From Mytilus edulis (taxonomy: Eukaryota), in NCBI RefSeq assembly GCF_963676685.1, contig NC_092346.1, positions 105,834,001 through 105,898,000 of the forward strand: a stretch of DNA of 64,000 nucleotides, given 5' to 3'. Positions 6,124 through 58,293 of this stretch are shown here, piece by piece (the first letter of the stretch is position 1; each line of letters starts with the position of its first letter). The position numbers and the translations under genes were made by a program. A model generated the notes under the pieces. That model saw only the letters and a program-made list of their open reading frames with translations, made no database searches and had not been told where the DNA came from.

Positions 6124-9100
6124 TCATTGAAGAACATTTGATAAAAGAACTGCTCCAAAATATGTAGCATCCTTCGTGAGGTCAATGGTCGTACCAGCAA
6201 TTTTGTTTTGTATTTCTAAAACATCATTCTGCTGAACGAATAATACACTTGTTATGCTGCAAGTCTTCATCTTTTTGTTTTTATGACTTTTTGGTCCATG
6301 AACATAACTGTCGTTGCCTTCCACACACCTAAGTACAGTGTCAGTGTTTGGGTTATGCCGATGATGTATGATGGCTATTTCTTCCCTGGACAAAACATTA
6401 TTGAACACAACCTAAAATAACATATATCTATCCTACAATAACATATAGATATTTCTTCCCTGGACAAAACATTATTGAACACAACCTACAATAACATACA
6501 TTTATTTTTATTTTCAAAATTATTTTCCAGATTCTGTTAAATAAACAATTTTCAGTAGCCAGAGCAATCTAATACAGAATGTTTTAAAAGATTCCTTCAA
6601 TTACAAATATTTGATAAATTACAGGTTTATCTTGGAATTAAACAATGTTTTCTATGTAAAACATAGCGAACACTGATTACTGCGAAACCTTTTCTGGTAA
6701 ATTAACATTTTTTTTAGAGATATGATATAAAATGCCAACAAGTAACTATCAACCAGAGAAAACATTTGAAAAAGATAACTATATGCCATCGAATGGCCTT
6801 TAAAAATGAACAAAACCGATAGCATAATTCAAGCTATAAAAGGAATTAGTGTGAAAACGTGTGGAATAAACCAAAAGAGAAACGAAAGACAAAATATGAA
6901 AAACAGCTTCCAATGTCGATTACTGATTTTTCCCAATTAGTGATGTATTTGTGTGAATTCTTTAACAAATAACTTTAAATTTTCCGTCCTGAATATACGC
7001 GAGATATTTGCAAGCAGTCATCAACTAAAGCTCTACAAATCAATCAATCAATAAGTGGATCTTCAGAAAAACAAAGTCCAAACCAGTGGCTCTTTAACAA
7101 AGAAGCGGAAAATATCAAAGAAAAACATAAAGACTCGAAATTCAAAGAGAGACCAGATAAAAACACGGCTAAACAAACGTAAACGACGAAAAGACAAACA
7201 TCAGTCTACCAAACACGTCATTTAGTTCTGGGCAGCATTTATCACTCCAAAAATTATGGATAAACATCTCGGGTGATGTACAATGGTTAGCAGAACAACG
7301 CCTTCTGATTGGTTGTGTATAATTATCTAAGGTGATTCGCATTGGTTAGCAGAACCCGCCTCTAGATTGTTTGTGACAATAATTGAATAATTAATCTCCT
7401 ATCTAGATTACATAAGTTATCGGTGACAATCTGTCAAGCTGTGACTTGGTCGACAACTATTTTGAATGAGGTTTGATAATTATAGTTAAATACATGGACG
7501 ATGACAATATGATGCATTTAATATACACATTAAAATAACACAAAAAAAATACAAATAAACAAAACACTAATTAACATTATTCGGTAGGTTCTTTATCATA
7601 CAATTCTTAGGTTTCATATGTTACACTTGCGTTTCTCCCAATAAAAAATAATGGTCATTTAAAGTGGATTGCATTCTTAGTACCCAATAAATTATCGTCA
7701 ATAAAGCTATTTTTGGTCGGCCTTGAAATATTTTATCCATTATACTTTTCCGAAACCTCTTCCCCCACAAACAAAATGAAGAAACAACAACCAAATATAA
7801 TTGAGTCCACAAGACATGTGTTTACTGTACGAAGCATGTGGCACCTGACAGACGTGTCTCTGTTATTTGTTTTAGATTTCTAAAGTTTTGTTGTGAGCAT
7901 TCTTGATTCTAATTATAAACTTACGTGGAAGTAAACCAGATAGATCCCTGTTTCTTTGGCTTTATATTTCCCCTTTTCTGTATCATCAAATGGATTTTCA
8001 ACATTATTCCAATTTGATCTCTCAAGAAACGTCATAGTCTGACTGTTTTCTGAAAATAACATATGCTATAGCATCATATACTTTTTTTTATTTGAAAATG
8101 TATCAACATCAGATGTTAAATATATAATGTAAAAATTTTGTCGTAAGTATAATCGGTTTAGAAAATTGTCCATTAACTGGCATCTTTAATTACTTGTCTT
8201 AAATTGAACAGATATTAGTCAGTGAAAATTGGAATACATTTTGGTAAGTATCATGACCATGTGGGGTATGTAACAGTTTCCGTTATTACGCAAACCTCTG
8301 TTTAAATGTCAAATTATGATAATAGCATTTTGAGTGCATTTTGGAAAATACTGTAGAAAAACCTATTTTTATAACATAATTTATGTCCATTGACTACTTA
8401 CTTAAACTTGTATATGTTCTATTTCTACAAACTGTACCATGCCATATGTTATTGCATTCAACTGAAAAAAAAAACAAATTATTCACTCAATGGTTAAACT
8501 TTACAAATAAACGAAATAAACAAAAGCAAAAATGCATTTTAATACTGTACAGAGGAATCTACTAGACAAATACCGCCTTAATTTTTTCACTTGGTACGTG
8601 TAAAATTGTAATGGTGGGTCTTTTTAGAAATTCCTGAAGTAAATTTACAATACATGTGTCTTTCACAAATAATTTTGAAGCCCCAGTCCATCAATTGAAC
8701 ATTATAACGAGCGTTATGCTTATGATGCAATTAAACTATTATAGTTTTATATTTGTCACAGTGTGCAAAAGTTGAATCTCACTTAACTCTTCAATTAAAA
8801 AAATATGAAAGCCTGTATAATTAGTTGTATATTTTTGTAGGTTTTGATAATACTACTGCTGCTTTTACCTATACCTGATTTTCGTAACAGAAGGGAGGAG
8901 CTTCCAAGTAGGATATTGGACTGGTAAAGTAAAGAAACTTGTCAAAATTCTTACGAATTCCATCACAGTTTGGGTTGACTGTTATGGATTATCTTAGTCC
9001 CAGATGACCATGGGTATGTAACACTAGGGGTTCCTCAAGTCCGTTATCTTCGTCTCGTAGCTAGCCTCACTGCATACAACTTATAAGGGGATAATGAAGT

Positions 9101-12100
9101 TACATGAGCAATACGACGGGTGTAATTACTCGAACAAGAGCTACATACCCTTTCGAGGTATGAGTTTATGAGCCAGCGGTATTCTATAGGGTTTACTTGA
9201 ACAAGAGCTACATACCCTTTCGAGGTATGAGTTTATGAGCCAGCGGTATTCTATAGGGTTTACTCGAACAAGAGCTACATACCCTTTCGAGGTATGAGTT
9301 TATGAGCCAGCGGTATTCTATAGGGTTTACTTGAACAAGAGCTACATACCCTTTCGAGGTATGAGTTTATGAGCCAGCTGTATTCTATAGGGTTAATGTT
9401 GTTGACTCTTTACTTTTTTGTGAACCTTCCCCAGAATGTTGTTTGTCTTTTTTCTTTTCCCCATGTTTTTGTCTTTCCTCGACTTATAAATTCCTATTAC
9501 CTCGTTTGTCACTTCTTTTTCTTTTATCATTTCGGTTTTATTTGTAAGTGTGCATTAATTAAAGTTCATAATACTTAACCTTGACGTGAAAAATTAATAA
9601 GTACATGCAAACTTTTTTTAAAATGTTAAACAATGAGTATCATGCATGTACTTTTTTTATTTTTCAAGATATTTCAGAGCTTAATTGACCAGTTTCAAGT
9701 ATTAAACATAACATTTTAAATGAAACAAGTATACGCTTCTCAAAAAGGTTGTCTGGATTTAGCATAGCATATGTAGTAAAAATATTACTGATAAAGGATC
9801 TCAGATAAATGAGGCTTGAATTTGTGTTTTTGCGAAAGTTGTTTATTGCTTCAAAAACTGTATGTAAGAAATATATCTTGATTGTCATATTGTTAACTGA
9901 TTACTGTGAAATTTAAAAAAAAAAAAAACTTGATAAAGACGTTCTCTTGGTTCTTAATTTTAGTGATTGCTTCTTAACTAGATATCAAAAGTTAATTTAA
10001 GCATCAGTGAAAATATAAGGGTGACTAGTCTAAAATGTGAATGATGTGCACCATATTCTCTATAACCATTTTTTGTCTTTTCCCAGATCTTGTCCTCATG
10101 GTTAATGTCGCGATCGAAGTCAGAAGTATAATGTGCTGCTTTTATTTTCATCTGAAAAAATAACTGACAGGTCATGAATAAGATAATCATTTGCATTCAA
10201 ATGATATTTTAAAATAAGTAAAGCATATTAATTTGATGAATTTACAAATAAAAGTATGTATACGGTACATGGACAGAAGAACTATACTTAACAACAAAAT
10301 TATTTTAATTTACCTGTGTATTATATGACGTAATTTGTTTTTCAAATTTGATGTTTTTCTAAAATTGTTTAACATTTCACAGCAGTTTTATACTTTTACT
10401 TTAATAATTCATTACTTATTATTATTAACTCTGTATTTACATTGTATCACAGATCAAATGTATTCTTGAATGCATTGTGTGTTTATTTGTGTCACTTCGT
10501 TTTTTGATGGAGTAAAGTCATTCCAATTATATTTTTTAGTGTGTCTTTCTATGTTGTGATGTTATACTACTGTTATATAAAGAGAAGGTTTGGTAACATT
10601 TTTTTAAATGTTTAATCCCGCTGCAATTGTTTGCACCTGTCCTAAGTCAGAAATCTGCTGTTCAGTGGTTGTCGTTTGTTTACGTGGTTCATAAGTGTTT
10701 CTTGTTTCTCGTTTTTTATATAGATTAGACCGTTGGTTTACCCGTTTGAATTGTTCTACACTAGTATTTTTTTGGGCCCTTTACAGCTTGCTGTCCGATG
10801 TGAGCCAAAGCTCCGTGTTTAAAAAAACCGTACCTTGACCTATAATGGTTTACTTTTATAAATTGTGACTTAGATGGAGAGTTGTCTCATAGGCACTCAT
10901 ATCACATGTTTCTATATCTTTATACAGTACATGTAACTATGGCAACACACGAAATACTATCAGATAAGCAAGATAGTCTATTCTGTATGCAATATGTGTA
11001 TCATCGCACGATCATATTATTGTTTTTCACTAGTTAAATTTACTCATTAAGGTCTTTCCTCTACAAGGGACAGACCTTATTGTTTTTCTTCCGTTTTTTC
11101 TTCCAACATTGTTTTGGCATGGCCTCCCCCCATTTCTGTTGAAGTTAACAAGACCAAATATGGACCATAGATAGACCTCATCATGAAGTATAACCAGATG
11201 ACCCTATTAAGAATTTCATTATCCCCTTTACAAGTTATCTCCCTTTTATTTGATATTTTTGACATGCCCCCCCCCCCCCCTCGTTGTTTATGAAGATATC
11301 ATGACCTTATTTGGACAATAGGTAGATCTCATAATGATGTATCACAATATGAGGCTGCTAAGGATTTAATCATTCCCTTTAAGAGTTATATCCCCTTGAA
11401 GCTATTTCTTTTATTTGCATTTTTCTTAAAAAAAGTATTAGAGATAGAATCGAATTAAAAACGGCAACATGTTGTTATCAACCCTTATAAGGAGTAATTT
11501 CTCTTGAAAGATTATACACAATTTTTGAAAAATTCTTATTCGAGAACCGGACGTCGTAGAGACTTGGAACCTTCGACAATAATCTTAAGTTCATGTGACC
11601 TTTAATTTGCACCCAATGTCAAAGGCCACTGAGTTCAAAAAAAAAAATACGCTGCAATTTCAATCTTACATATTAAGAAAACGATAAGAGTTTGCTGCAT
11701 ACATACTGTGTATAAAATGTTCCTCTGGACGAGCTCTACATTTTATACATTAAGCCCAAAAATGTCCGACCGTCTGTTCAAAAGTTACGACGAGATAATT
11801 ATTAAAAGTACAGTATTGTTTGTATATCTTTGAAAAGGTAACAGATATGAACCTACTGTGAATTGCAAAAATGATCAGTTCTTTAAGACCTTCAATTTGA
11901 GGTCAATGTCAGGTCATGATGAAATTTAACCTTGACCTTTAAAGTGAACTATGACCTTGACCTTGTGATATTTGAAAGGTCAAGTGGTCCTGAGTTGAAT
12001 GGTGATAGTCCCATGTCTCTACGACTTCCGGTTCTCAAGTTTGGTATTGCATCATATATTTGATGATTCATTGTGACCTGGATGAACTTTGAAATTGTCC

Positions 12101-15100
12101 CAATTTTCTATAATGTTGTCCTTCAACTGTAGATCATTTATCATCTAACAGATTTGAGATATCTGTTGTCGTTTTAGAGATAATGCAGTTTGAAATTTTG
12201 CAAGCGGAGGCATGTATTTCTGAATCAACAACAGCTTACCACTTAAATTGTTTAAGAAATTGAAGAGGTTAACATAGTTATATGTTTGACCAAATACCTA
12301 AAACATTCCAATGAAAAAAACACAAAAAAATCAATTTGAAATTTTCATGTTTTGCATTGACTTTGTAAGTTTCATAACTTCTATTTATATAGTTGATATT
12401 GCATCATTTTTGGCACTTTGTCAAATGGAGTCATCTGATATATCAAATTGAAGGTCTTAATAAACTCTATTTAAAAATGAAAATTTTAAACCTCTTTTTC
12501 ATCCCAGGGGGAAGGGTGGCGTCATTTAGTACAAAATTTCAAATTTCTCAGATGGTAAGGTTGTCACATATCAAATGAAAGAACATAAAGCGTACATGTC
12601 AAATTTCAATTGATGTCCCCCAAAAATTGGATGGATGGGGTCATTGAGTGCAAAAAAATTAATTTACCTTTAAGATAGGGTTGTTGTATATCAAAAGAAA
12701 GGTCATGATGTGTACATTTGAAATATCAAATTCCCGACCTCCAAAAATTAGTTGGATAGGGTTATTAGGTGCAAAAATTAAACTTTCTAGAACATGGCGT
12801 TGTCGCATATCAAATGAAAGCTCATCTACTCTATGTTACATATAGCATACTTCCGATCTCAAAAATGTAGGCGGATGAGGTAATTAAGTGTAAAAAGCGA
12901 AAAGTTTCAGAAGGTATGCTTGTCGTATATCAAACAAAGTGTCATGCAAAGTACATTACGAAAACATCACTTTTACAGGAAAGACCTTTCAATTGTTTTA
13001 CAAACAATTGAGATACTAGTGTTGCTATTATTTTTGTTTTACTTATTTAATGATATCAGTCTTGTTCTGTAGTACATGATTTTACAAGAAAGTAAAAAAA
13101 AATTATATGAATTGTGTAAGGCTGGTCGATTTCAATGTTGACATATCAGAGCACAAAACAGACATGTAGACTTATATCTATGTATAATTGCTACAGTTAG
13201 TATGTATTTACCGTTTTACTAGGATCACCTTTCTCCCCTTTCGGTCCTATTAATGAATAATATAAAACGATTGATTAAAAGATGAGGATCGTCAACTTAT
13301 GTTTTAAGATAAATAACCGTGGCTATGTCCTTTAAAAATTACTGGCATATGAGACATAAAATCAAACTGATATATTAGTGGAACGAAACAATATAAAGTA
13401 ACGAAAAAACATATAAAACATGTAAAATATATACCTAGACTGACATATCAAATTTACTGCCGAACTGGCGTTTTAACCGTAAAGCAGATAAAATTGTTTT
13501 CCACTACATATACGTGTATTCGAAGCTTGAAAATATTACATTCCAATTTTGGTAAAATTTATACCCAGACTTAGTAAAATTAAGTAAACACATTTATTGT
13601 ATCGTGTTTTTATTAAATGATACACACCAGTATTTCCTTGAGTTCCAATAGGACCCTGATCTCCTTTTATACCAGGAGCACCACGTGATCCTTGTTCTCC
13701 TGTTGTACCAGATTCACCCTTTTCTCCTCGATCACCTTTGGGTCCGGGAGGTCCTTTTCTCCCACGCCTCCCTCTGCACTTACATCTGCGAGCTGAGATT
13801 TAAATATATTGAACAGATATAATTTTCTATAGAGCTATTTCATTTGAACTAAATGCTGTTTTATTTCCTTATATCCCACATTTGCTATTATTTATATTTT
13901 AGATAAGGGTGGGGGTTTAGTACCATTAAAACGTTTAAACCCGCTGCTATGCACCTGTCCTAAGTCAGGAGTCTGATGTTCAGTAGTTGTCGTTTGTTGA
14001 TGTGGTTCATAAAAGTTTCTCGATCCCCTTTTTTTTATATAGATTAGACCGTCGATTTTCCCATTTGACTGGTTTAACACTAGTCATATTTTGGGGCGCT
14101 TTATAGCTTGTTGTTCGGTGTGAGCCAAGTCTCCGTGATGAAGACCGTTCTTTGACCTATTATTGTTTACTTTTATAAATTATGACTTGGATGGATAGTT
14201 GTCTCATTGGCACTCATAGAACATCTTCTTATATCTATAGATGTTTAAGATGTTACACCCAAAAATTGTATGTGTTCTTTGTTCTTAAAAACACGTACTT
14301 GCCGCGGATTAATGCGGTGGCAGTCTTTAGTGTTTTGGGGGTGTAAAATGTTATCCGAAACTTATCAAACATTTGTATTCATATTTGTATTTTGGAAACG
14401 TTTTGTACTTGTATCGTCTTTACTTATAGCAAATACATTCGAAACGTTTTGTACTTGTATCGTCTTTACTTATAGCAAATACATTCGACACGTTTTGTAC
14501 TTGTATCGTCTTTATTTATAGCAAATACATTCGACACGTTTTGTACTTGTATCGTCTTTATTTATAGCAAATACGTTCGACACGTTTTGTACTTGTATCG
14601 TCTTTACTTATAGCAAATACATTCGACACGTTTTGTACTTGTATCGTCTTTATTTATAGTAAATACGTTCGACACGTTTTGTACTTGTATCGTCTTTATT
14701 TATAGCAAATACGTTCGACACGTTTTGTACTTGTATCGTCTTTATTTATAGCAAATAAGTTCGAAACGTTTCAAAGATCATCTTGTGCAATAGTTATATA
14801 TACCTCTCTTCGTTTTGGTTTTCTTTTGAGCATTTCGTTTAAAAACCACGTGATTGTAAATTTCATCGTCGTCTTCATCCTATTGAAAGTAAATGATAAA
14901 ACTTTGAAAGAAAAGACATCAAATTTAAGGCATAACACGAAATGAAACTAAAAAAAAACCACTAGAAGTTCGCCTTCTATGCATTTGCTGCAACGAGACG
15001 TATAGACATATTTTGTTTTATTGTCTTTTCAAAAATCTAGCCGTTGACAATTGACCTGGATGTCAACATTTTGAAATTTAATGACAAGACAATATCTTTT

Positions 15101-17282
15101 TACATTTTAACATTTTAAACAATAAAAAAAATAAGTATTTATATTTATCAGATATATATTTAATTCTTCCCTGTCTTTTTAACACTAGTAAAAGGATTAT
15201 ATAAAAGATATTTGCCCTTGCAAAGTACGAATAACTTGCAATGTCATTGTTTATTACAGCGTTCATGGTGAAGGTTAATCTAGAAGAGCGCTATGGACAC
15301 ACGCTATTTTCCTATGCAAGCATTTTAGATACGGTATAATGTAAAATTAAATTTAATTGAATGATGCGTTGTTTATTATACAAGTGTTATATAGTTAATT
15401 GACTTTTCTTAGCTGATTTTCATTTCACAATCTAGTGAGTTATTAATAATTTATTATTTCACTTACCGAAATAAGAGGGGCTAGGCTTCGTGTTCATAAC
15501 AACGACATTTGTAAGGTAAACCCCTGCTCCTGTCGACTTTTTTTTTAATATTTTGCCATGCCGTAGCCAATAAAAGCTAACTATACGTTTTTGCTCATTA
15601 TTGAAGGGCTTACAATGCCTGATGGTTGTTTAAAGCCTCGTCTTTTGTCACTGGAAGACGATAAACCAGGTTTATCCTATTATGTTTCGAGAAGCTAAAA
15701 TACATATCGACTTTACTTATACTGCAACTTTAAAAACTAGAAAGGGGAAACTACAGAATGTATTGTTATGAAAAAGGGGAATTCCATTACGTTGTTATCC
15801 TATGAACTAATGTTAATTCGATTTGAGAGTACAAATTATTCTGAAAATGTTAATCGAGACATATGCTAACTACTCTCATTTTTCGTTCATTTTATGTAAT
15901 TTTAAAACGAAATAATTTTGACGGAAATTTTCGCAGAAAATTATCAGATGTATGTAAGAAATGTAGAAAATACAAAGCGCATTACAAAAAAAGAGAAGAT
16001 TGATTGATTGTTGGTTGCTTTACGCCGCATTAGAGAAGAAGGAAAATTTATAGAGCAAGGGAAAGTAGTTATAAAAAGTAACTTACAAAAACTCAAAAAA
16101 AAACTCAAAATTATCTAACAAAATTTACCGGATTGATGTCAAGTCCTTCTTGAGGATTACGCATTTACTGTTTTAGAGATCAAATTCATTAAGGATAAAA
16201 AAAAACCTTTCTTTATTCACAGGAAGTAATTGAATACATAGATTGATGTCAACTTTTGAAGTAATTAAAATCAGTTTAGGTTTACTAAGCCGTTAACACT
16301 ATGATATACATTATGTGACTATGAATGTAAAAGATTTACTGATTTATTTGAACACCTTTGGCACATCATATAGATGAAACTTTCTTCATTTTTGCTGCAT
16401 ACATTGATGGATAAAGATAACTAGTTAAAAAGATAATACAAAGAAAATACCACCAGTCGAAAAAGTAAATATAAGTTTTTTTTTATCTGCAAAAGAGCGT
16501 TGCATCAACCTATGTGCGATGAGTTATAATTGTAAATATTAACTTAAAGATTAATAAAAATAAAAAAACTGAAATGTTTTAATATTAATTTATTTCCCTT
16601 TAAGGTAATCAGATCAATTTACAGAACAGAAAGAGGAAGTAAATTGATTCATGAGAATTTGGCTGATTTCAGCGAATTCAACGGAAAGGGAGATAATACC
16701 AGTTAAGCTGATGTTAATCAATTATGTTTCCTCCGTCATTTTCATGTATCAATTTTACAGTATTATACATGAAGAATGAAGCTTTCTTAACGACATACCT
16801 TCCCTCCTTAAAAGAACCCAACTAAAAACAAAAAAGAAATAAAAATTCAAAATACAAATACAAAAGCGAAAACAAAACACTAGCTAGAATACAAAAATCA
16901 AAAAAAAGGAGAAAAACAGTTTTGCACGTGTAAAAGTATTCGTTAAAGAAAATTGAATTAGAAGTATTTCTATGATTAGAAATAAACATTTTTTAATACT
17001 TACTCGATGAGTTTCTTCAACTCGATTTTGTAATGCCTCTGAGTGTAATGCAGCTTTATGTAACTCGGTAGACAGTTCTTTTCTGATGTTAATATTTTCT
17101 GATAGTATCCATACATTGCATGCCAAAATTGCACAAGACAAAATAAATAGAAGTATAGTTGCTAAGATAATTAGTCTTTGTGAACTCGTAAGTGATGGTT
17201 TTCTTTGCGTTGTTGTGTCACCTCGACATTTAGGACATGGCGACATTTCATGTGCATAATTAGCATCAGAGTATAAATCCAT
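6124..17282 (-). CDS. TNF-superfamily ligand with collagen stalk (ectodysplasin-A-like architecture), ~390 aa, 9 coding exons
   Basis: Exons (minus): 17282-17004 (cytoplasmic + TM LIILATILLFILSCAILACNVWIL), 14879-14804 (DEDDDEIY...KTKTKR), 13792-13628 (ARRCKCR + 16 Gly-X-Y), 13246-13212 (GPKGEKGDPSKT), 10358-10314, 10151-10052 (or 10067, donor ambiguous; IKAAHY = THD strand A), 8461-8402 (CNNIWHGTVCRNRT), 8049-7925 (W...GKYKAKETGIYLVYFH), 6411-6124 (LRC...KTCS...TYFGAVLL, TGA). All junctions GT-AG with compatible phases and no internal stops. Confidence 0.88.
9130..9393. repeat. 67-bp tandem repeat, ~4 copies
   Basis: Unit GAACAAGAGCTACATACCCTTTCGAGGTATGAGTTTATGAGCCAGCGGTATTCTATAGGGTTTACTY. 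Confidence 0.9.
10440..10920 (+). repeat. Dispersed 3'-anchored repeat family (...TTGCACCTGTCCTAAGTCAG...GTTGTCTCATTGGCACTCAYACCACATCTT)
   Basis: Same family at 13893-14239, 24330-24585 and 51125-51574; related copies at 38738-39078 (-), 19798-20120 (-) and 21215-21535 (+). All share the 3' end and vary in 5' truncation. Confidence 0.7.
11047..13020 (+). mobile_element. Helentron/DINE-1-like non-autonomous rolling-circle element in a TNF intron
   Basis: Subterminal inverted repeats AAGGTCTTTCC (11049-11059) and GGAAAGACCTT (12978-12988), 5' hairpin, 3' hairpin TCAATTGTTT...AAACAATTGA, terminal CTAGT, internal degenerate ~120-bp repeats. Confidence 0.72.
14395..14771. repeat. 46-bp minisatellite, ~8 copies
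   Basis: Unit ACGTTTTGTACTTGTATCGTCTTTAYTTATAGCAAATACRTTCGAM; ends ~30 bp from the exon-2 donor. Confidence 0.92.
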
Positions 17283-23215: not shown

Positions 23216-23448
23216 ACATATCATTGCATTTTAGGTAATTTATTAATAAGCTGAACATGTATTTCTGTTTTCTTCTATAACTTTTAACGCTTGCGCCGAA
23301 TAAAACACAGACGCAGTCTAATTGTTAGAATAAGCACACTACATATTTTTCATTTTGTATTTTCATTTGATACCCATGTATAATTTCATTATATTCAGTT
23401 ACCGTTACTTCCCTGGAAAATATTGCTGGCTCATAAACTACCCTGAGT

Positions 23449-28900: not shown

Positions 28901-29997
28901 GCGCGTTATCCGATTAACGTTCCACAGGAACGACCACAGATAAAGTTCCACCTGTTGTGTTTGATCATTCAACGGTTTATTTTTAATCCACTCTACGCAT
29001 TTATCACTTAACTGATGTATAATGTGAATATTTTATCGTGTCTTCCTTATTTGGGTGAAATATCATCATTGTAACTTTATCAAAATTTAAGTTAGTGGGT
29101 ACCTCTTTTGAACTGACTATCGCCTTATTGCGCAGCTTCTTCCGACATTTCCTCAGGTATCGTTTTTCTTTCTTGCATTTTTTCTTATCTTAAATATGAA
29201 GACGGTGTCTAATCCTTATGTAGATAAATCAATTTAAAAATATTTCAAGAAGAAAAATAGCAAATTAAACACACAATAAACAGTAAATTCAGATTTATAT
29301 CATAGTTTAAGTTATAGTTATAATTTTACATTATTATTATTATTTGAAGAAAATAACCCAACAATTGTACATGGTTTCAGAAATGCAATGTCATTTAAAA
29401 AAAAGTACAAAAACCATACCTTTATCTGCAAATCTTTTATGGCGAAAATATTGATCGTCGGAAGCTTTGTTTTCTGTGCCATCATCGTCCTGTACATTTT
29501 TATGCATAGGATCATGCTCTCTTGTATTCTGACAAAGTTAAAACATAAACCATAAGTTTAAGAAGTATATTACATAATAGCTTTGTCAAAACAAATGAAG
29601 GAAATTAATAGTTAGACATAAAACACCGTAAAATTGATGTGGACAAACTGTATGTTATATCTTTGTGCAATATTAATAGTTTTTGAGAGAAGATATATTC
29701 AAATATAAAATGTTTGTTATTTCGTGTTTGATGAGGAGTTATCTGAGCAGATATCATAAATATTGGATGTGCTTCTTTTTATATTACATAATTGAGAAAT
29801 TCATAAGCATATAAGAAAGAGATTACCTGAACTGGTATATGGCCGTCTATCAAAATGTCTTGTACAGATTTACGCAGAACAACAACATCGTTTGAAAGTC
29901 GCGCTATTTCTTTGGACGACCATAAAATGTAAAAACATATAATAAAATATCCGAAATTTTGAATGCATACGGGTGCATTATTTTGAGTAACTTTCAT
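25911..29997 (-). CDS. TNF-superfamily ligand (EF-disulfide/Eiger-EDA-like THD) with basic stalk, ~304 aa, 7 coding exons
   Basis: Exons: 29997-29827 (hydrophobic FGYFIICFYILW), 29528-29420 (furin RHKR), 29188-29103 (KKKCKKEKRYLRKCRKKLRNK), 28149-28068 (LQAAHV), 27791-27720 (CYKEFGGLVCYNNKT), 26944-26823 (W...GKYKVKYDGLYLVYLN), 26183-25911 (MTC...KSC...NNFGVILL, TAA). Phases consistent; 915 nt total. Confidence 0.87.
27538..27758. repeat. 4-copy tandem duplication (48/57-bp period) of a TNF exon 3' end plus donor site
   Basis: TACCTGATTGTCTACTGTCGCTYTCATAAGTCTTATTG repeated; the rightmost copy is the exon end at 27720. Confidence 0.85.
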
Positions 29998-30442
29998 GAC
30001 TTGAATAAAGTTAAGCCCTATAGCTACATAAGGTCATAAGAACGTATAATTAAGATTTGTGAAATTCAAAATGTAAACACAGGTGACCGGATTATGATTT
30101 CCGCCTTTTTTTACCTTGACACAATAAATTATTCGAAGTCGGATAAAGCACATAATAAATTAAGCTTGAAGGGTGACGCTTTAAATACTGACAATGAACT
30201 AAGACTTCAGATTAAAATGTTGCATAATAAGGTTGGGTAAAAATATTTGATTATACATTTTCTATTTTATTTTATTTATTCTTGTTTCTTTTCAAAGTAA
30301 CTTTACATATGTTAAGACATACAAGCAGGTGTTAACAATACAGTTATCATATCCACATGGTTATACATTATTCAGTGCTATAGTCATTTATAAAAAATCA
30401 AAAAAAAAAAAAAGACGCACTTTTATGTTGAGATTAAAAACA

Positions 30443-33400
30443 TTATGCAAGTAAAACAGCTCCAAAGTTTGTATTATAGCTATCCAGGTATATTTCGGTG
30501 TTCCTGGTGACTATCTTAACGGTAATTGTTTGACTTCGCTCGACGTAAAACACTCCCGATACACTACAGGTTTTAGCCTTTGAGTTAGTAGACACAGATG
30601 CGGTACCTCTGACATAGTCTAAATTTTCACGACAAACTAATTTTTTGTCATCCGCTATAAATATTCCAACGTCGTGTTTAGAAAGTGTTGCACTGATAAG
30701 AACCTACAACATATATTAAGAAAAGTATACAATTAGAATGCGTTTTGTAATAATAACTTCATGTTGGAAATCTGTATAAAAAATATAATTTTTTGGAAAA
30801 TGCCTTTTGGATTGTTTTTTAAATAGAAAAAAGTTAGCATCATGTCTGTCTTTAAAATATCCACAAATAAATTACAACTAAACGTTGAGCAAACAAATAT
30901 TAAACAAGCCATTAAACCAAGAGTTCAAAATAGAGTTGAAATCATCTCTTCGTAAATTTTACGGAGAACATCACGAGTTGGTTGACAGTTATGGAATATC
31001 CGTTTCACAGATAATATCGGATATGTTATGTCGTAACTACAATCGCGTTCCCTATTCACGAATGTGACTTACCGAATTAGACTATTTACCGGGTGTGTAA
31101 TAAAATGAGCAACACGACGGTTGCCACATGTGGAGCAGGACGGAGCACCTGCAATCACCCCCAGTTTTTGGTTGTGTTCGTGTTGCTTAGTCCTTAGTTT
31201 TATATGTTGTGTCTTGTGTACTATTTGTCTTTTTCTTTTTTATCCATGGCGTTGTCGTATCTTTTACTCCTTTTTAAATAATGGATTCAACAATAAAATA
31301 ATTTCGCTCTAAATATATGCCCGAAATGAAAAATACAAAAATAAATCATTGCTATGGTGTAGGAAAATTAAAATAATTCCTTTGACTATTCAACTGTTAA
31401 TCCTTTAATCCAACTCTCCTACAGCTACTGTTTTCATATTGTTAATGAATATGAACAAAATCAATTTAGATACATATACATATACATATGTGTGGAACTC
31501 ATACCACATCTTCCTATATCTATATTATTTACAAACTATTACATTTAGATACATAAGATATAATCCTCCAGTTTCCACTGTAAATATTCCAGGGCTTGGT
31601 TTGTTCATTCCGAGTGAAAGTACATCTCTATTGTGAGTCTTTGTCCATTGAGCTTTTTTCCAAAATTCTATAATTCTATTAGAATCTATAAATAAGGAAC
31701 AAATTCAGTTCGCAGCATGTGCAAGGTCTTTTGAGATAAATGAAATGGTATGTATATACCAATATACACCAAATGTTAACTTGAATGTAATGATTCAACA
31801 GCAGTATTATACTGATAAGTGAATGGACCTAGACCTCCTGGTAGGTAAAAGTTCCAGAGTCTTTTTATAATTATAAAAAAAAACCATTTGACTTTTCTAC
31901 GCTTCGCACAAGTATTCCTCATTCCAAACTAAAAGACAAATTGAAAAGTTCGTATCACTTTGTTTCATAAAAAGAATGGCCAACGTAGATACAAGTATCT
32001 TGTCTTAGGGAGGGATAAATCCTACTTTGTAAAGGATCACTCTGATTCAAACAAAAAATTCTCTGAAACTGATATTATCAAGATGCTTGATTTCTTGATT
32101 GACAGCATATTTGTTACGTTCGGGGGACGTGTTTTTCAACAGACTGTCGGCATTCCAATGGGAACAAATTGTGCCCCTCTTATTGTCGACTTGTTACTTT
32201 ATTAATAGGAGGCTGACTTCATACAGGAACTTCATAGGAAGAAAGATAAAAAGTTAGCAATATCCTTTAACTCTACTTTGCGCTATATAGAGGATGTTCT
32301 TTCACTAAATAATTCAAAATTTGGTGACTATTTGGTGACACATCTATCCCATCGAACTAGAGATAAAAGATACTACAGATACAGTTAAGTCGGCCTCATA
32401 TCTTGACTTACATCTAGAAATTGACAACGAGGGTCGATTGAAAACAAAACTTTACGACAAAAGAGATGATTTCAACTTTTCAATTGTGAACTTTCCATTT
32501 CTGAGTAGCAACATTCAAGCAGCACCTGCATACGTGGTATATATCTCCCAATTGAAACGATATTCCCGAGCTTGCATTTCCTATCATGATTTTCTTGATA
32601 GAGGGTTACTGCTCACAAGGAAGCTATTAAACCAAGAGTTCCATATCGTGAAGTTGAAATCATCCCTTTGTAAATTTTACGGACGCCATCACGAGTGGGT
32701 TGACCGTTATGAAATAACCGTTTCACAAATGATATCGGATATGTTTCTTACGTCATAACTACAATCCCCTTCCCTTTCATGAATGTGACCTACCGAATTA
32801 GACTATTTACCGGATTTGTTATCACATAAGCAACACGACGGGTGACACATGTGGAGCAGGATCTGCTTACCCTTCCGGAGAACCTGAGATCACCCCTAGT
32901 GTTTGGTGGGGTTCGTGTTGCTTATTGAGTTTTCAATGTTGTGTCATGTGTACTATTGTTCGTCTGTTTGTCCTTTTCTTTTTTAGCCATGGCGTTGTAA
33001 GTTCATTTTCGATTTATGAGTTTGACTGTCCCTCTGGTATCTTTCGTTCGTCTTTTATTAACTATCAATATCAGAAGACCAGTTGAACTATAATTAAGAT
33101 GTGCCCAAGAGTAGGTTATATTTTTAAATTATTAAACGTTATCTTTGTCAGAGGGAAGTCTGCAGAAAACAAAAATATGTATGTATGGTTTAATAGAAAT
33201 TGTTGCAAAAATAATTCATTGGAAATCATCTGGTTTTATTTTTATTTAGAGCGTAGGTCGTTTTTGCTTGCTTTAAAAACTAAAAACAAAGTGTTGAATT
33301 TCATACAATACTCAATTTGCAATTTTATTTTGTTTATTTCTGTACACTTTCATAATTCTTTTTCTGTTGTTCCCTTGTTTTCCTCTTATAGTTTCCCTCG

Positions 33401-36400
33401 GTTTTAGTTTGTAATCCGGATTTGTTTTCTCTCAAACGATTTATGACTTTTGAACAGCGGTATACTACTGTTGCCTTTATTTATTCAAAGCGAAATGAAT
33501 CATACCTATATTCTTAAATGTATTATTCCTACACATCAAACCGTGCCATTTGTTTACACACATTGCATCTAGAATAAAAAGAGATACCATTATCATACTG
33601 AAAAATATCTAGTTAACGTGTTAGAGATATTTAAAACAAAAGTATGTCACTGTATAAGTAGCTAATATGATAGAAAATAACCAAAGGATGTTTGATCAAA
33701 ATGCAAAATATATATTATTATTTGTTTGTTGCACATAATTTGTTTATTTTTAAGAGCTTTTGATTTTCCATTTGATAAGATACTTTTCGTATTGAATTTT
33801 CCTCACAGTTTAGTATTTTTGTTATTTTACTTTTTTCACATAATATTTTATATCATATGTTGAAATGATGTCTTTTGAAAATTATTTGACTTTACGATAG
33901 ATAATTGGAAAGCACTCCAGACGTATATATGTATAAAGCGGTATTTTTATTTTCTTTTGACATAAGTAATGTCTTTGTCTTGCTCATCTTTGTTCTGTGT
34001 TAAAGTAAACTGAATTGAAGTGGTGTAATAAACATATAATTATATAAGTTTCAATTATGTATTCACAAAAAGTGTAGAGTAACACGAGTCATTGTAGTTG
34101 TTTAACAGTGCTAAATATCGCTACATTTTATTTTGTTATAGTGCAACTTACGGAGGTAAATTATTGAAATAAAGAAACACGGAGACCCCCAGCAGAGATG
34201 AAACAATTAGGAATAGGAAACAATCTGTGCAGTTAAAGATCAGATGACTATATTGGAATCTAAAGATCTAAGACCACGAAAACATGTCACTAGAGAGTTG
34301 GGTATAGACACATCTTATTGGTGATACAATTTGTGACCGTTTAACCTGTGTAATGTCGATATCAGTCAATATACGTAAACGTTTGACCGTTTAACCTGTG
34401 TAATGCCGATATCAGTCAATATAAGTAAACGTTTGACCGTTTAACCTGTGTAATGCCGATATCAGTCAATATAAGTAAACGTTTGACCGTTTAACCTGTG
34501 TAATGTCGATATCAGTCAATATAAGTAAACGTTTGACCGTTTAACCTGTGTAATGCCGATATCAGTCAATATAAGTAAACGTTTGACCGTTTAACCTGTG
34601 TAATGTCGATATCAGTCAATATACGTAAACGTTTGACCGTTTAACCTGTGTAATGTCGATATCAGTCAATATACGTAAACGTTTGACCGTTTAACCTGTG
34701 TAATGCCGATATCAGTCAATATAAGTAAACGTTTGACCGTTTAACCTGTGTAATGCCGATATCAGTCAATATAAGTAAACGTTTGACCGTTTAACCTGTG
34801 TAATGTCGATATCAGTCAATATAAGTAAACGTTTGACCGTTTAACCTGTGTAATGTCGATATCAGTCAATATAAGTAAACGTTTGACCGTTTAACCTGTG
34901 TAATGCCGATATCAGTCAATATAAGTAAACGTTTGACCGTTTAACCTGTGTAATGCCGATATCAGTCAATATAAGTAAACGTTTGACCGTTTAACCTGTG
35001 TAATGCCGATATCAGTCAATATAAGTAAACGTTTGACCGTTTAACCTGTGTAATGCCGATATCAGTCAATATACGTAAACGTTTGACCGTTTAACCTGTG
35101 TAATGCCGATATCAGTCAATATAAGTAAACGTTTGACCGTTTAACCTGTGTAATGCCGATATCAGTCAATATAAGTAAACGTTTGACCGTTTAACCTGTG
35201 TAATGCCGATATCAGTCAATATAAGTAAACGTTTGACCGTTTAACCTGTGTAATGCCGATATCAGTCAATATACGTAAACGTTTGACCGTTTAACCTGTG
35301 TAATGCCGATATCAGTCAATATAAGTAAACGTTTGACCGTTTAACCTGTGTAATGCCGATATCAGTCAATATAAGTAAACGTTTGACCGTTTAACCTGTG
35401 TAATGTCGATATCAGTCAATATAAGTAAACGTTTGACCGTTTAACCTGTGTAATGCCGATATCAATATAAGTAAACGTTTGACCGTTTAACCTGTGTAAT
35501 GTCGATATCAGTCAATATAAGTAAACGTTTGACCGTTTAACCTGTGTAATGTCGATATCAGTCAATATAAGTAAACGTTTGACCGTTTAACCTGTGTAAT
35601 GCCGATATCAGTCAATATAAGTAAACGTTTGACCGTTTAACCTGTGTAATGCCGACATCAGTCAATATAAGTAAACGTTTGACCGTTTAACCTGTGTAAT
35701 GCCGACATCAGTCAATATAAGTAAACGTTTGACCGTTTAACCTGTGTAATGCCGACATCAGTCAATATAAGTAAACGTTTGACCGTTTAACCTGTGTAAT
35801 GCCGATATCAGTCAATATAAGTAAACGTTTGACCGTTTAAGCTGTGTAATGCCGATATCAGTCAATATAAGTAAACGTTTGACCGTTTAACCTGTGTAAT
35901 GCCGATATCAGTCAATATAAGTAAACGTTTGACCGTTTAACCTGTGTAATGCCGATATCAGTCAATATAAGTAAACGTTTGACCGTTTAACCTGTGTAAT
36001 GCCGATATCAGTCAATATAAGTAAACGTTATTTAACCTGTGTAATGCCGATATCAGTCAATATAAGTAAACGTTTGACCGTTTAACCTGTGTAATGCCGA
36101 TATCAGTCAATATAAGTAAACGTTTGACCGTTTAACCTGTGTAATGCCGATATCAGTCAATATAAGTAAACGTTATTTAACCTGTGTAATGCCGATATCA
36201 GTCAATATAAGTAAACGTTTGACCGTTTAACCTGTGTAATGCCGAAATCAGTCAATATAAGTAAACGTTATTTAACCTGTGTAATGCCGATATCAGTCAA
36301 TATAAGTAAACGTTATTTAACCTGTGTAATGCCGATATCAGTCAATATAAGTAAACGTTTGACCGTTTAACCTGTGTAATGCCGATATCAGTCAATATAA

Positions 36401-39400
36401 GTAAACGTTATTTAACCTGTGTAATGCCGATATCAGTCAATATAAGTAAACGTTATTTAACCTGTGTAATGCCGATATCAGTCAATATAAGTAAACGTTT
36501 GACCGTTTAACCTGTGTAATGCCGAAATCAGTCAATATAAGTAAACGTTATTTAACCTGTGTAATGCCGATATCAGTCAATATAAGTAAACGTGATTTAA
36601 CCTGTGTAATGCCGATATCAGTCAATATAAGTAAACGTTTGACCGTTTAACCTGTGTAATGCCGATATCAGTCAATATAAGTAAACGTTATTTAACCTGT
36701 ATAATGCCGATATCAGTCAATATAAGAAAACGTTATTTAAGCTGTGTAATGCCGATATCAGTCAATATAAGTAAACGTTATTTAACCTGTGTAATGCCGA
36801 TATCAGTCAATATAAGTAAACGTTATTTAACCTGTATAATGCCGATATCAGTCAATATAAGTAAACGTTATTTAAGCTGTGTAATGTCGATATCAGTCAA
36901 TATAAGTAAACGTTATTTAAGCTGTATAATGCCGATATCAGTCAATATAAGTAAACGTTATTTAAGCTGTGTAATGCCGATATCAGTCAATATAAGTAAA
37001 CGTTATTTAACCTGTGTAATGCCGATATCAGTCAATATAAGTAAACGTTATTTAAGCTGTGTAATGCCGATATCAGTCAATATAAGTAAACGTTATTTAA
37101 CCTGTGTAATGCCGATATCAGTCAATATAAGTAAACGTTATTTAAGCTTTTTCGAGATATAATTGTAATTATTCAACTCACTGTTTGTAAATGTTTGACT
37201 GATAAGATCTCTTGTGACTCCAGTTGGAACATAATGAACGGCTTTAGGCTATAGAAAGGTGTAAAGAAAGATGTATATAATGAACGGCTTTAGGCTATAG
37301 AAAGGTGTAAAGAAAGATGCATTCATGTTATTCATTAGTCTTAATGTCAACAAATGTATAGAAAAACTTTTTATTCTGATTCTTCACATTCTCAATTACG
37401 CTTTCTTTATAAAATACAAAGTTATTTAACAGTGTAATTGTTATGATTGTATGTATAATGTGTATTTTAAATTATTAAAGACATAAAAAAGTAAAAGTGT
37501 TTGCTTCGGTATACTAATACATGGTATGCGTATGAGCATATATGTTAAATTTAAAAATAACTGTTACACTTGATTTAAATATTATAATGAAGAAGAAGAT
37601 AAATTGACTACAATTTCCCTACAATTATTTGCAATTTTTACTTTTTATTATTATTATTTTTTTAAGATCAACTTTTCTGCACATCTGTATTTTTTTTAAA
37701 ACAGTGCATTGAAACCGGTTTTACGACTTCAAATTCTAAATTATAATTAATATTACCTGCTGTACAGGTGCATCAAAATTCAAAATACCACCTGAAATTA
37801 AATAAACACACCGTATTAACACATTTTGCAGCAACAGTTAACAATCTTTCGCATCGTTTGCGATAATTCTTTTTCTATGCGAAAAACTAACCAACCGATA
37901 AAAAGCATTATTAGTTCACGACTATATCGATAAATGGATCGCAAATGCTATGCAATTATACGTTTTCAAAGAATTCGTGAATACATTAATATCAAATAGT
38001 GTATGTACTAAATATATTTTGAAAATAGATACAATTTGAAAGTACTGTTTATGATTGTATTATAGCATATATAAAAAAAAATATAAGATGTGTGACGCAG
38101 TTACCTTGAATATCTTCCATTCTGTTATTTGTTCTCAGATGTCTCCCTCCTAATTCTGTTCAAAAAAAAATATTTGTACATTTAAAACTATGACGCTAAT
38201 AAATAATATACATTGAATATCATATTACTGCAAGTGTTTTTAAATTCACAAAACAGTTGATAGGAAAATAGAAATAGATAATGGTATGGCATATCTGTGT
38301 CTTACTTGTTTTTTCCATTCATTCTGATGATTTATTTTATCAGTTTTATGGATTTTTCCATCTGTTTTATAATTTACATAGGAGTTAGGTACTTTTGTTA
38401 TTTCCTTTTTTACAAAATAAACATTGATTTATCACCAATACAGAAAAGACATAGATTTGTCTCTGTACTAGGCATTGTCATGACTAAAACGTCCCAAGAA
38501 CAGTACATATTACCATTCCTAGACAACTGGTCTCATTAAATAATGGCAGGTATTATTTTCAATCATTCGCCTTTTAGATGGTTCATTTGGTCCAATCATT
38601 CAGCCATGAAGAGAGACGAAAGATACCAGAGGGACAGTCAAACAAAATATAATATAGAATTAATATTAATATTTATGTTCAACCGATTAGTGGTAGGGTT
38701 ATCTTTTTTCAATATTTTACTCGGTAAATGAAAGATGTAAAAAAGAAGAAGTGGTATGATTGCCAATGAGACAATTATCCACAAGAGACCAAATGACACA
38801 GAAATTAACAACTATAGGACACCGCACAGCCTTCAAAAACGAGCAAAGTCATACCGCATAGTCGGCTATAAAAGGCTTCGAAGTGAACCATGTAAAATAA
38901 TTCAAACGGCAAACTACCGGCATTATTTATGTACAAAAAAATGAACGAAAAACAAATATGTAACACAACAAACGACAACCACTGAATTACAGGCTCCTGA
39001 CTTGGGACACGCACATAATAGAGAATGTGGCGGAGTTTAACATGTTAGCAGGATCTCAACCCTCCTATAACCTAGGACATTTTCGTCATTTTTTCTTATT
39101 TGGTAAAATACGCTGTCTGTTTTTCTACTAGTGACATTGTTTTACCTCTTGGTATCATCTTTTATCTTTTATAACGTGAGAAAACAGTAAGACAAAAAAA
39201 ATACAGAACTCCGGGGGGAATTCAAAACTGAAACAACTCGCTGTCACCTCACAACTTTACTATCAGTAATGTTTCATAAGCATTGTACAGTAATGGACCT
39301 ACCTGCACCATGTAGACTTTGGTTACTTGACATTGTATCGTCACTTGCTTCCTTTAGAAGTATATTATCACTCTGTCAAAATCAAAACATACGTAAACAC

Positions 39401-39891
39401 AAAATATATTCGATTGACTGTCATCATTATATATCATGACTTTTTCTCCAGAAAGATAATAAATTAAGAATAGTTACAATGATAATAAAAAGTAAATACT
39501 ACAAAATTAGCTGGCTGGTCGTTTTCTTAAGACTGTTAAATATGTTGAACGGCACTTGTACATGTGATGAATTCTACAAGTATTGAAATAAAAATATAAA
39601 TAGTACATATTTATGAAATGTAATTTGTGAACAAAAAATCTACAATTTGCTTTTTAAAGTTACCTTGATTGTATTTTCCGCTGCTCTAGTAGAATTTATT
39701 TCAGGACTTCTATGCGACAAGGTTAGCAACTCTCTCCTTATCTGTTCAATCTTATTTACAGATAACCACATTAATATAACACAACTAATTGAACAAACGG
39801 ATGAGAAAACACATATAATTAATATTTTAGCGTTAGAACAGACAGACTTTCTGTCCCTTTTCATTGCCTTTTGAATTTCTACGTCGTCCAT
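30443..39891 (-). CDS. TNF-superfamily ligand (EF-disulfide/Eiger-EDA-like THD), ~305 aa, 8 coding exons
   Basis: Exons: 39891-39664 (TM ILIICVFSSVCSISCVILMWL), 39372-39303, 38155-38105 (RHLR), 37791-37757, 37248-37182 (PKAVHY), 33568-33506 (CVNKWHGLMCRNNT), 31685-31543 (W...GIFTVETGGLYLMYLN), 30703-30443 (LVC...KTCS...TNFGAVLLA, TAA). Phases consistent; 918 nt. Most exons are absent from the ORF track. Confidence 0.87.
30908..31272 (+). mobile_element. Short 3' fragment of the same Penelope-like family
   Basis: LNQEF...LKSSLRKFYG and 3' UTR match 32625-33057. Confidence 0.75.
31884..33057 (+). mobile_element. Degenerate 5'-truncated Penelope-like RT element in a TNF gene intron
   Basis: FDFSTL, GIPMGTNCAPL, RYIED (mutated YIDD), YDKRDDFNFSIVNFPFLSSNI and YISQL motifs, with stops and frameshifts, followed by the family 3' UTR. 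Confidence 0.85.
34334..37147. repeat. 50/45-bp intronic minisatellite, ~2.8 kb
   Basis: Unit GTTTGACCGTTTAACCTGTGTAATGYCGATATCAGTCAATATAAGTAAAC; a 45-bp variant appears after ~36025. Confidence 0.95.
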
Positions 39892-58007: not shown

Positions 58008-58293
58008 TCTAGGTTCAATAATAAATTTGGTTGGGTTATTTTAGGATGTTGGGACTATAATATGATACATGTACATGTGTAATAGTGAACACTGATGATT
58101 ATTTTTTCTTTTTTTCTACTTCATCATTTGATTATAAACATAAAAATAATATAACAAGCTACATAAGAAATGTATGTGCTGTAAAAAGAACAATAATTAT
58201 AAAAAATAAAAATAAAAAATAATAATACTAAACAGTTACAACAAAATACTTTCTATCATGACTAGATTAGATTCATAATTTGTTTATTATTGG

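What the first reader, a model, noticed from the sequence alone, without database searches (positions are those of the whole stretch)
6124..39891. Three-gene head-to-tail TNF cluster with one domain scaffold and three different stalks
Seen: three same-strand paralogues share THD exon phases (0-1, 1-1, 1-0, last exon) and a predicted furin site (RARR, RHKR, RHLR). The stalks differ completely: collagen, Lys/Arg-rich with two Cys, and short polar. The collagen gene and the rightmost gene both have a 35-nt phase 1-0 stalk exon. THD sequences are strongly diverged. Inference: an old tandem array that diversified how the shed ligand is presented (multimerised, matrix-tethered, diffusible), with possible heterotrimers as in LTa/LTb or BAFF/APRIL.
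Basis: partly seen in the sequence, partly recalled or inferred. Interest (0 to 1): 0.72.

Follow-up and report, generated by a model that had tools for sequence, protein, structure and literature searches.

The report
Mussel ectodysplasin-like TNF gene array
Three working mussel signalling genes, part of a row of five, are old relatives of the human hair-and-tooth gene EDA and share most of its exon layout; two of them likely lost an ancestral collagen stalk, and all three carry an extra small cysteine-bearing exon so far seen only in molluscs.

Summary
In detail: three intact minus-strand TNF-family genes, whose models agree with Mytilus database proteins; spliced contigs confirm all six introns of the middle gene and one of the right gene. 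Corrections: the array has five genes (two more lie left of the window), and the stalks are not unrelated. The three genes belong to the EDA/Eiger/APRIL/BAFF (E-F disulfide) group. Their intron phases equal those of human EDA once EDA's 24-nt exon and one extra mussel exon are set aside; the 35-nt phase 1-0 exon matches EDA exon 5 in length, phase and position. The middle gene's closest scallop and oyster relatives keep collagen, so its Lys/Arg-Cys stalk is likely a collagen-less remnant of the same plan. The duplications predate the mussel-scallop-oyster split. New here: a symmetrical exon with two Cys and an N-glycan sequon inside the TNF domain, found in bivalves, snails and a chiton and annotated as skippable in two snails. 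Invertebrate EDA-like genes and bivalve TNF tandems are known. Shedding, receptors, heterotrimers and function are untested.

The parts
39664..39891 (-). Gene A exon 1: short cytoplasmic tail and type II transmembrane anchor; ends phase 0
   Evidence: agrees with P0011/P0014
39303..39372 (-). Gene A exon 2 (70 nt, phase 0-1), polar stalk
   Evidence: acceptor corrected from my first model using P0001/P0002
38105..38155 (-). Gene A exon 3 (51 nt, 1-1) with minimal RHLR site; occupies the slot of the collagen exon
37757..37791 (-). Gene A exon 4 (35 nt, 1-0), counterpart of EDA exon 5
   Evidence: EDA boundaries
37182..37248 (-). Gene A exon 5 (67 nt, 0-1), strand A of the TNF domain; first residue aligns with EDA residue 248
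33506..33568 (-). Gene A exon 6 (63 nt, 1-1): inserted two-Cys exon with N-x-T sequon
31543..31685 (-). Gene A exon 7 (143 nt, 1-0)
   Evidence: spliced to exon 8 in 2 of 4 contig sets
30443..30703 (-). Gene A exon 8, rest of TNF domain with the E-F Cys pair; stop lies 446 bp from the ATG of B
29827..29997 (-). Gene B exon 1, short weakly hydrophobic anchor (max Kyte-Doolittle 19-mer 1.5)
29420..29528 (-). Gene B exon 2 (109 nt, 0-1) with RHKR furin consensus
29103..29188 (-). Gene B exon 3 (86 nt, 1-0): Lys/Arg patch with two Cys; spans the phases of C exons 3+4 without collagen
28068..28149 (-). Gene B exon 4 (82 nt, 0-1), strand A
27720..27791 (-). Gene B exon 5 (72 nt, 1-1): inserted two-Cys exon
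26823..26944 (-). Gene B exon 6 (122 nt, 1-0)
25911..26183 (-). Gene B exon 7, last coding exon
17004..17282 (-). Gene C exon 1, type II transmembrane anchor
14804..14879 (-). Gene C exon 2 (76 nt, 0-1): acidic run, KR site, start of basic patch
13628..13792 (-). Gene C exon 3 (165 nt, 1-1): RARR across the junction, C-x-C, collagen repeat
   Evidence: PF01391 E 9e-11
13212..13246 (-). Gene C exon 4 (35 nt, 1-0): last Gly-X-Y triplets and linker
10052..10151 (-). Gene C exon 5 (0-1), strand A; two in-frame donors 15 nt apart (10067 and 10052) give 370- and 375-aa forms
8402..8461 (-). Gene C exon 6 (60 nt, 1-1): inserted two-Cys exon
7925..8049 (-). Gene C exon 7 (125 nt, 1-0)
6124..6411 (-). 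Gene C exon 8, last coding exon

Best explanation
These are three intact Mytilus TNF-family genes of the EDA/Eiger/APRIL/BAFF group, sitting in a five-gene head-to-tail array, and they likely descend by old tandem duplication from one EDA-like ancestor with the plan membrane anchor - furin site - basic patch - Cys - collagen - 35-nt linker exon - TNF domain. Shown: gene models, splicing of B and part of A, subgroup placement, phase series, collagen in B's relatives. Inferred: C kept the whole plan, B lost collagen in the mussel line, the A line lost collagen and most of the basic patch earlier. By analogy with EDA (inferred, untested), B and C would be shed by a proprotein convertase at the exon-2 basic site and held near the source by proteoglycan binding, C additionally bundling trimers through collagen; A, with only a minimal site and a disordered stalk, would be shed poorly or act as a plain trimer. 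The inserted two-Cys exon is predicted to fold as a hairpin on the TNF domain and may tune receptor choice.
For: Profiles of the family rank EDA first among single-domain solved TNF ligands: EDA-A2 35 bits, Eiger 31, APRIL 31, BAFF 24, RANKL 22, TNF 11-13; deeper profile EDA-A2 97, Eiger 84, APRIL 76, TNF 28-32. A model of an A orthologue (mean pLDDT 80) matches Eiger Z 18.4 (rmsd 1.8, 142 aligned), EDA-A2 17.8 (1.8, 135), TWEAK 17.2, BAFF 16.6, TRAIL 14.5; Foldseek ranks EDA-A1 first. The E-F Cys pair is invariant in 72 of 72 aligned rows and marks this group (PMC6684607, passages). Human EDA exon ends from variant names: c.396, 502, 526, 706, 793, 924 and c.741 (reported as likely splice-affecting) give phases 0,1,1,1,0,1,0 and a 35-nt 1-0 exon 5; A and C have 0,1,1,0,1,1,0. 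Model residue 130, first of A exon 5, is aligned with EDA residue 248, first codon of exon 6; the last mussel intron sits at the EDA-A2 junction (alignment). B-like anchors with collagen in Mizuhopecten (P0070, P0074) and Saccostrea (P0078). Collagen-bearing molluscan rows are not one clade (p-AU 1e-53; at least 6 changes for 14 of 37 rows). Orthologue domains are 90-96% identical across Mytilus species.
Against: No vertebrate sequence was in my trees, so orthology to EDA itself rather than to the EDA/APRIL/BAFF ancestor is not shown; Eiger and EDA tie in structure score. Change counts cannot tell loss from gain. B's sister group is unresolved in the careful tree (sister to the scallop collagen genes only in the quick tree, 85). 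The first stalk introns cannot be aligned residue by residue, only by phase and order. Exon structures of other molluscs were not seen. The c.741 boundary rests on one indirect passage plus my recall. In four raw RNA runs (6-18% of each read) A's last exon had no reads and B depth stayed under 1. No cleavage, binding or phenotype data.
Confidence: 0.72

Rival explanations
1. Collagen was gained several times by insertion of phase 1-1 collagen exons into a collagen-free Eiger/BAFF-like stalk; likeness to EDA is partly convergent.
For: Collagen is patchy (14 of 37 full-length rows, at least 6 changes); gene D has the EDA-type domain introns with furin site, two Cys and basic patch but no collagen; symmetrical 1-1 exons can be inserted without frameshift (general knowledge).
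Against: Collagen always follows the same basic-Cys motif; the 35-nt exon is shared by EDA, collagen-bearing C and collagen-free A; a hemichordate protein (P0101) has anchor, RQKR, 19 triplets and TNF domain in the same order.
Confidence: 0.13
2. The tightly linked A and B (or all three) act as heterotrimers or as a read-through fusion, like LT-alpha/LT-beta, BAFF/APRIL or TWE-PRIL (vertebrate examples recalled; APRIL-BAFF heterotrimer structure 4zch seen).
For: A stop to B start is only 446 bp; both appear spliced in the same two runs, and one contig runs unspliced from A's last intron into B exon 1 and on to spliced exon 2; A-then-collagen-gene order is implied by a chimeric Pinctada model (P0058). 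B's anchor is weak.
Against: A contig across two genes shows no single transcript; whole-run co-occurrence is not co-expression in a cell; domains are only 28-34% identical; no A-to-B splice joint was listed (only A exons 7-8 were in the stretch, 3 joints not shown).
Confidence: 0.12
3. A recent Mytilus-specific expansion with neutral drift or decay of some copies.
For: Very low or no reads in four raw RNA runs; a RefSeq M. edulis model of A is only 153 aa (P0012); TNF tandems turn over fast in bivalves and tunicates (PMC8905726, PMC12843592, passages).
Against: Mytilid A+B+C as one clade rejected (p-AU 0.0004); open frames and 90-96% orthologue identity; spliced contigs; each gene present in 3-5 Mytilus species.
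Confidence: 0.03

Closest known systems
Vertebrate ectodysplasin A (EDA)
   Same: Type II ligand; furin site in exon 2, basic proteoglycan-binding region, 19 Gly-X-Y triplets, TNF domain (EDA; gene C); 35-nt 1-0 exon before the domain; domain split by a phase-1 and a phase-0 intron; E-F Cys pair; top sequence match.
   Different: Mussel genes lack EDA's separate 24-nt exon 3, add a two-Cys 1-1 exon in the domain, have Cys before the collagen (C) and occur as several paralogues, two without collagen. About 22-25% identity in the structural alignment. No 2-residue A1/A2-type donor in B or C; a weak in-frame GT at +6 in A only. Receptor unknown.
Arthropod Eiger
   Same: Same E-F disulfide group; structure score ties with EDA (Z 18.4 vs 17.8). 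Gene D groups weakly (80/68) with two unnamed proteins and has Eiger as best TNF hit at E 0.26.
   Different: Eiger is the single TNF of Drosophila (PMC7674686, passage); it has no collagen (recalled); no two-Cys insert matched.
APRIL / BAFF / BALM, and the EDA-BALM and TWEAK-APRIL tandems
   Same: Same subgroup; furin site plus basic patch without collagen resembles B (APRIL feature recalled); tandem arrangement of EDA-cluster genes (PMC7674686, passages).
   Different: Lower scores than EDA; vertebrate paralogues arose separately; their exon maps were not checked here.
Bivalve TNF tandem expansions (Crassostrea 23 genes, Mercenaria 76)
   Same: Tandem TNF clusters are common (PMC8905726, passages).
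   Different: 26 of 28 Pfam TNF matches in this genome cover most of the domain in one reading frame; A-D have intron-split domains and A, B, C were not among the 28.
Database 'ectodysplasin-A-like' molluscan proteins
   Same: The M. trossulus orthologue of C and relatives in Gigantopelta, Mizuhopecten and Saccostrea already carry this automatic name.
   Different: The collagen-free A and B are 'uncharacterized'; their link to the same family is not in the names.

Membership tests
TNF ligand superfamily | C-terminal TNF homology domain (jelly roll) | tested here: met
   PF00229 over cut-off for A (26.1) and C (25.2), under it for B (19.4, E 0.001; cut-off 23); fold match for the A model; B aligns with A and C at E 1e-18 and 1e-9
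TNF ligand superfamily | Type II membrane anchor near the N-terminus | tested here: met
   Hydropathy peaks 3.0 (C), 2.7 (A), 1.5 (B, weak)
TNF ligand superfamily | Forms trimers and binds a TNF receptor | not tested
E-F disulfide subgroup (EDA, APRIL, BAFF, TWEAK, Eiger) | Cys pair linking strands E and F | tested here: met
   Both Cys invariant and aligned to EDA and APRIL Cys; bond itself inferred; feature defined in PMC6684607
E-F disulfide subgroup (EDA, APRIL, BAFF, TWEAK, Eiger) | Closer to these than to TNF/FASL/TRAIL/CD40L | tested here: met
EDA proper | Collagen domain between furin site and TNF domain | tested here: met
   Gene C only
EDA proper | Collagen domain in genes A and B | tested here: not met
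   No Gly-X-Y run, no PF01391; A and B are EDA-like paralogues, not EDA
EDA proper | Furin consensus and basic patch upstream of collagen | tested here: inconclusive
   C: RARR and RGRR fit but lie within or after the basic patch; the positionally kept exon-2 site is a plain KR in C, RHKR in B; A has only RHLR and no basic patch. Cleavage not shown
EDA proper | Exon-intron layout | tested here: met
   Phase series identical after setting aside one 1-1 exon on each side; 35-nt 1-0 exon; two introns aligned by residue
EDA proper | Phylogenetic orthology to vertebrate EDA rather than to the EDA/APRIL/BAFF ancestor | not tested
   No vertebrate rows in the trees
EDA proper | Signals through EDAR/XEDAR; A1/A2 two-residue splice switch | tested here: inconclusive
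   Receptors not testable. No +6 donor in B or C, weak one in A; a 2-aa pair at this junction is annotated in Patella

The most novel reading that the evidence does not exclude
The last common ancestor of mussels and humans already had a complete collagen-bearing EDA gene with essentially today's exon layout, next to a conventional TNF gene; this locus preserves that ancestral two-type tandem (gene E conventional, A-D EDA-group), and molluscs added a skippable disulfide hairpin exon plus a 15-nt alternative donor, kept from snails to mussels, that switch receptor specificity the way EDA-A1/A2 splicing does.
Probability: 0.25. Interest if true: 0.72.

Novelty: new variant of a known kind. Interest (0 to 1): 0.46.

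Why it matters
Papers on TNF evolution state that the links between invertebrate and vertebrate TNF ligands are only superficially analysed (PMC7674686, passage). Intron positions give a marker that does not saturate like 25%-identical sequence: if the 35-nt exon and collagen placement hold across molluscs, the EDA gene plan predates the protostome-deuterostome split, and collagen-free ligands are the derived state. The array offers a natural series (collagen plus basic, basic only, neither) to test what each stalk module does, and a mollusc-specific domain insert under annotated alternative splicing. It is not a new kind of system: EDA-like invertebrate genes and bivalve TNF tandems are in print.

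Tried and rejected
Raw RNA reads (4 runs): almost no cover on the exons, no splice joint in the genes; most reads were repeats; not taken as evidence of silence. RNA was never laid on gene C or on A exons 1-5. Complex prediction of an A2B heterotrimer was not available, so no verdict. First structure model from a 7-row alignment was poor (pLDDT 59) and its fold search did not rank subgroups; replaced. Gene E had no TNF hit among solved sequences; the Atlas puts it near CD40L/FASL-named clusters at 0.91, a lead only, and its tree place is a long unresolved branch. Atlas search with C's domain gave only C1q/TNF leads under 0.9. The neighbouring BTB-BACK-Kelch gene could not be given a vertebrate orthologue (KLHL3 144.9 vs KBTBD2 140.4 bits), so no vertebrate synteny claim is made. 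Weak Pfam hits (DddA-like, LplA, LITAF) rejected as chance. A search for further copies of the two-Cys exon found only itself (18-residue query, weak). Four look-ups of earlier scan findings returned nothing. Two papers could not be read. Ten literature searches listed no paper on molluscan EDA exon structure or the two-Cys insert; Gao 2015, Wiens and Glenney 2011, Pantalacci 2008 and Marin's later vertebrate survey were not read and may cover part of this; no supplements were opened.
Full report
Observation. Six-frame translation and a splice-site scan gave three minus-strand genes, named from right to left A (39891-30443, 8 exons, 305 aa), B (29997-25911, 7 exons, 304 aa) and C (17282-6124, 8 exons, 370 aa), all with GT-AG introns and open frames. 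They agree with Mytilus database proteins: P0020 for C, P0050 for B, P0011/P0014 for A; my first acceptor for A exon 2 was 21 nt short and was corrected from P0001/P0002. A search of the genome with A's last exon returned 3 matches, the three last exons in the window. Paralogue TNF domains are 27.6-33.5% identical, orthologue domains across Mytilus species 90-96%.

Expression. Four raw RNA runs of 2026 (6-18% of each read) showed no splice joint in the genes, no reads on A's last exon and depth under 1 on B exons in one run. Four of 14 contig sets listed as probable RNA and chosen because they hold this stretch showed all six B introns removed at the modelled places (five in 4 of 4, one in 2 of 4) and A's last intron in 2 of 4. 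D has no RNA support here.

The array is larger. A chimeric database model (P0025) and a 309-aa protein (P0017) led to two further genes left of the window on the same strand: D (G000:C3:105818023-105801300, 5 exons, 311 aa) and E (105793480-105777583, 7 exons, identical to P0017). D has a REKR site, two Cys, a basic run and domain exons 0-1, 1-0, last, that is the EDA pattern without the extra exon. E has other domain introns (two in phase 2) and looks like a conventional TNF (lead only). Gaps: A-B 446 bp, B-C 8.6 kb, C-D 22 kb, D-E 7.8 kb. Of 28 Pfam TNF matches in the genome, 26 cover most of the domain in one frame, and A, B, C are not among them.

Family. Profiles built from A/B/C orthologues rank EDA-A2 and EDA-A1 first among single-domain solved ligands, then Eiger, APRIL, BAFF, with RANKL, TRAIL, CD40L and TNF well below. 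A 72-row model of an A orthologue (pLDDT 80; domain mostly 86-98; stalk 79-117 under 50) matches Eiger (Z 18.4, rmsd 1.8, 142 aligned), EDA-A2 (17.8, 1.8, 135) and EDA-A1 (17.6), which tie, then TWEAK, BAFF, APRIL; Foldseek ranks EDA-A1 first. The E-F Cys pair, which marks this subgroup (PMC6684607, passages), is invariant.

Exon layout. Variant names in clinical papers give human EDA exon ends at c.396, 502, 526, 706, 793 and 924 (PMC6892193 results section; passages of PMC12879417, PMC7010634, PMC9339965) and, less directly, c.741 (PMC5042395 passages). This makes exon 5 35 nt, phase 1-0, and the intron series 0,1,1,1,0,1,0; A and C have 0,1,1,0,1,1,0. Setting aside EDA's 24-nt exon 3 and the mussel two-Cys exon, both symmetrical, the series are the same. 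Two introns can be placed by residue: the first residue of A exon 5 (130) aligns with EDA residue 248, the first codon after c.741, and the last intron falls at the EDA-A2 junction (alignment). The order of modules in C (cleavage site in exon 2, basic patch, 19 Gly-X-Y, domain) follows EDA. Whether APRIL, BAFF and Eiger share these introns was not checked.

Stalks. A profile search of 1.84 billion representatives gave 183 hits at E 0.001, 150 listed, 147 new. I looked up 20: 17 molluscs, 1 hemichordate, 2 unnamed. Two scallop proteins and one oyster protein have B's distinctive short anchor, a furin-type site, basic patch and Cys, then collagen; B aligns with them up to the point where their collagen starts (z 10-17, 0 of 500 shuffles). 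B's exon 3 (1-0) spans the phases of C exons 3 and 4. A's stalk gives no clear match to its own orthogroup (z under 2) but A keeps the 35-nt exon. In a 46-row tree of domains only (no vertebrate rows; 45 of the 91 rows left out) A and B lie in one group with scallop, oyster and pearl-oyster rows (94/93, short of starred), A with an oyster and an unnamed row (95/87), C apart; B's sister is unresolved. Mytilid A+B+C as one clade is rejected (p-AU 0.0004; tested after seeing the tree), as is one clade of collagen-bearing molluscan rows (p-AU 1e-53); collagen needs at least 6 changes over 37 full-length rows, direction not given. Consecutive accessions on one contig in Mizuhopecten (three), Saccostrea (two) and Potamilus (two), and a Pinctada chimera of an A-type end with a collagen gene, point to an old array; this is indirect.

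The inserted exon. The 1-1 exon carries C-x8-C, a Gly and an N-x-T sequon in all three genes. A pattern for it matched 19 of the 147 new hits (the match in P0070 fell on its anchor, its true loop is seen); the named ones are bivalves, two snails and a chiton. It is modelled as a confident hairpin between strands A and A'. Database isoforms of Gigantopelta and Patella lack it; Mytilus C is annotated with 370/375-type pairs in four species from two donors 15 nt apart, and Gigantopelta has a 5-residue pair at the same junction; Patella has a 2-residue pair at the EDA-A1/A2 junction. These are annotations I did not verify with reads; all 6 Mytilus-type contig proteins tabulated carry the long form. 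That this loop affects receptor choice is inference from TRAIL and RANKL loops (recalled); the Eiger paper places its modelled receptor on other loops.

Mechanism. In EDA, furin cleavage releases the ligand, a basic region limits spread and collagen multimerises the domain (PMC9339965, passage). By analogy B and C would be shed and proteoglycan-held, C also bundled; A would be a plain, possibly membrane-retained trimer. None of this is shown. Heterotrimers and A-B read-through are open.

Novelty. EDA-like invertebrate TNF genes are in print (PMC7674686 and PMC6684607, passages), C's orthologue is already auto-named ectodysplasin-A-like, and bivalve TNF tandems are common (PMC8905726, passages). 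Marin's model of an ancestral tandem of two TNF types (PMC12843592, section 15) fits E beside A-D but E's type is not established. Ten searches listed nothing on the exon match or the insert; key subscription papers were not read. Verdict: real, a new variant of a known kind, moderate interest.

Noticed in passing
G000:C3:105777583-105818023 (left of window; loci L002-L006): Two further TNF genes, D (EDA-type introns, no collagen, no insert) and E (different introns, conventional-type lead), same strand as A-C.
   Followed up: partly
window 44458-49697, minus strand: BTB-BACK-Kelch gene 4.6 kb upstream of A; KLHL3 and KBTBD2 score alike.
   Followed up: partly
window 6485 vs 6411 and 37294 vs 37248: The 3' splice site and first ~20-30 exon bases are duplicated just upstream in two of the genes (C last exon, A exon 5); use of the upstream copy in C is annotated as a truncated isoform in M. 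galloprovincialis (P0021).
   Followed up: partly
window about 18100-23150: Fold-back-like element between B and C: nested inverted arms up to 545 nt at 98% complementarity around a centre near 20700-21000.
   Followed up: no
window 53439-60420 minus strand; 31945-32755 plus strand: LINE-like element with a 708-aa first frame and split endonuclease/reverse-transcriptase frames; a reverse-transcriptase fragment lies in intron 6 of A (labels from my reading of the translations).
   Followed up: no
window 29420-30962: One contig runs from A's last intron through A's last exon into B exon 1 and spliced exon 2; B's leader reaches to at least 30256, under 200 bases from A's stop.
   Followed up: no
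P0215/P0064 (Patella), P0075, P0217: Short insertions (2, 2 and 4 residues) at the junction equivalent to EDA-A1/A2 in annotated gastropod or unnamed proteins.
   Followed up: no
P0101 (Ptychodera flava): Anchor, RQKR, 19 Gly-X-Y, TNF domain, then a second TNF domain; probably a fused model of two tandem genes.
   Followed up: no
P0052 (M. galloprovincialis B allele): Carries a 16-residue tandem duplication at the end of the inserted exon; may be a model artefact.
   Followed up: no
L035:600-3400: Broken DNA-polymerase-B-like frames of a mobile element next to a single-exon TNF gene (label from my reading).
   Followed up: no
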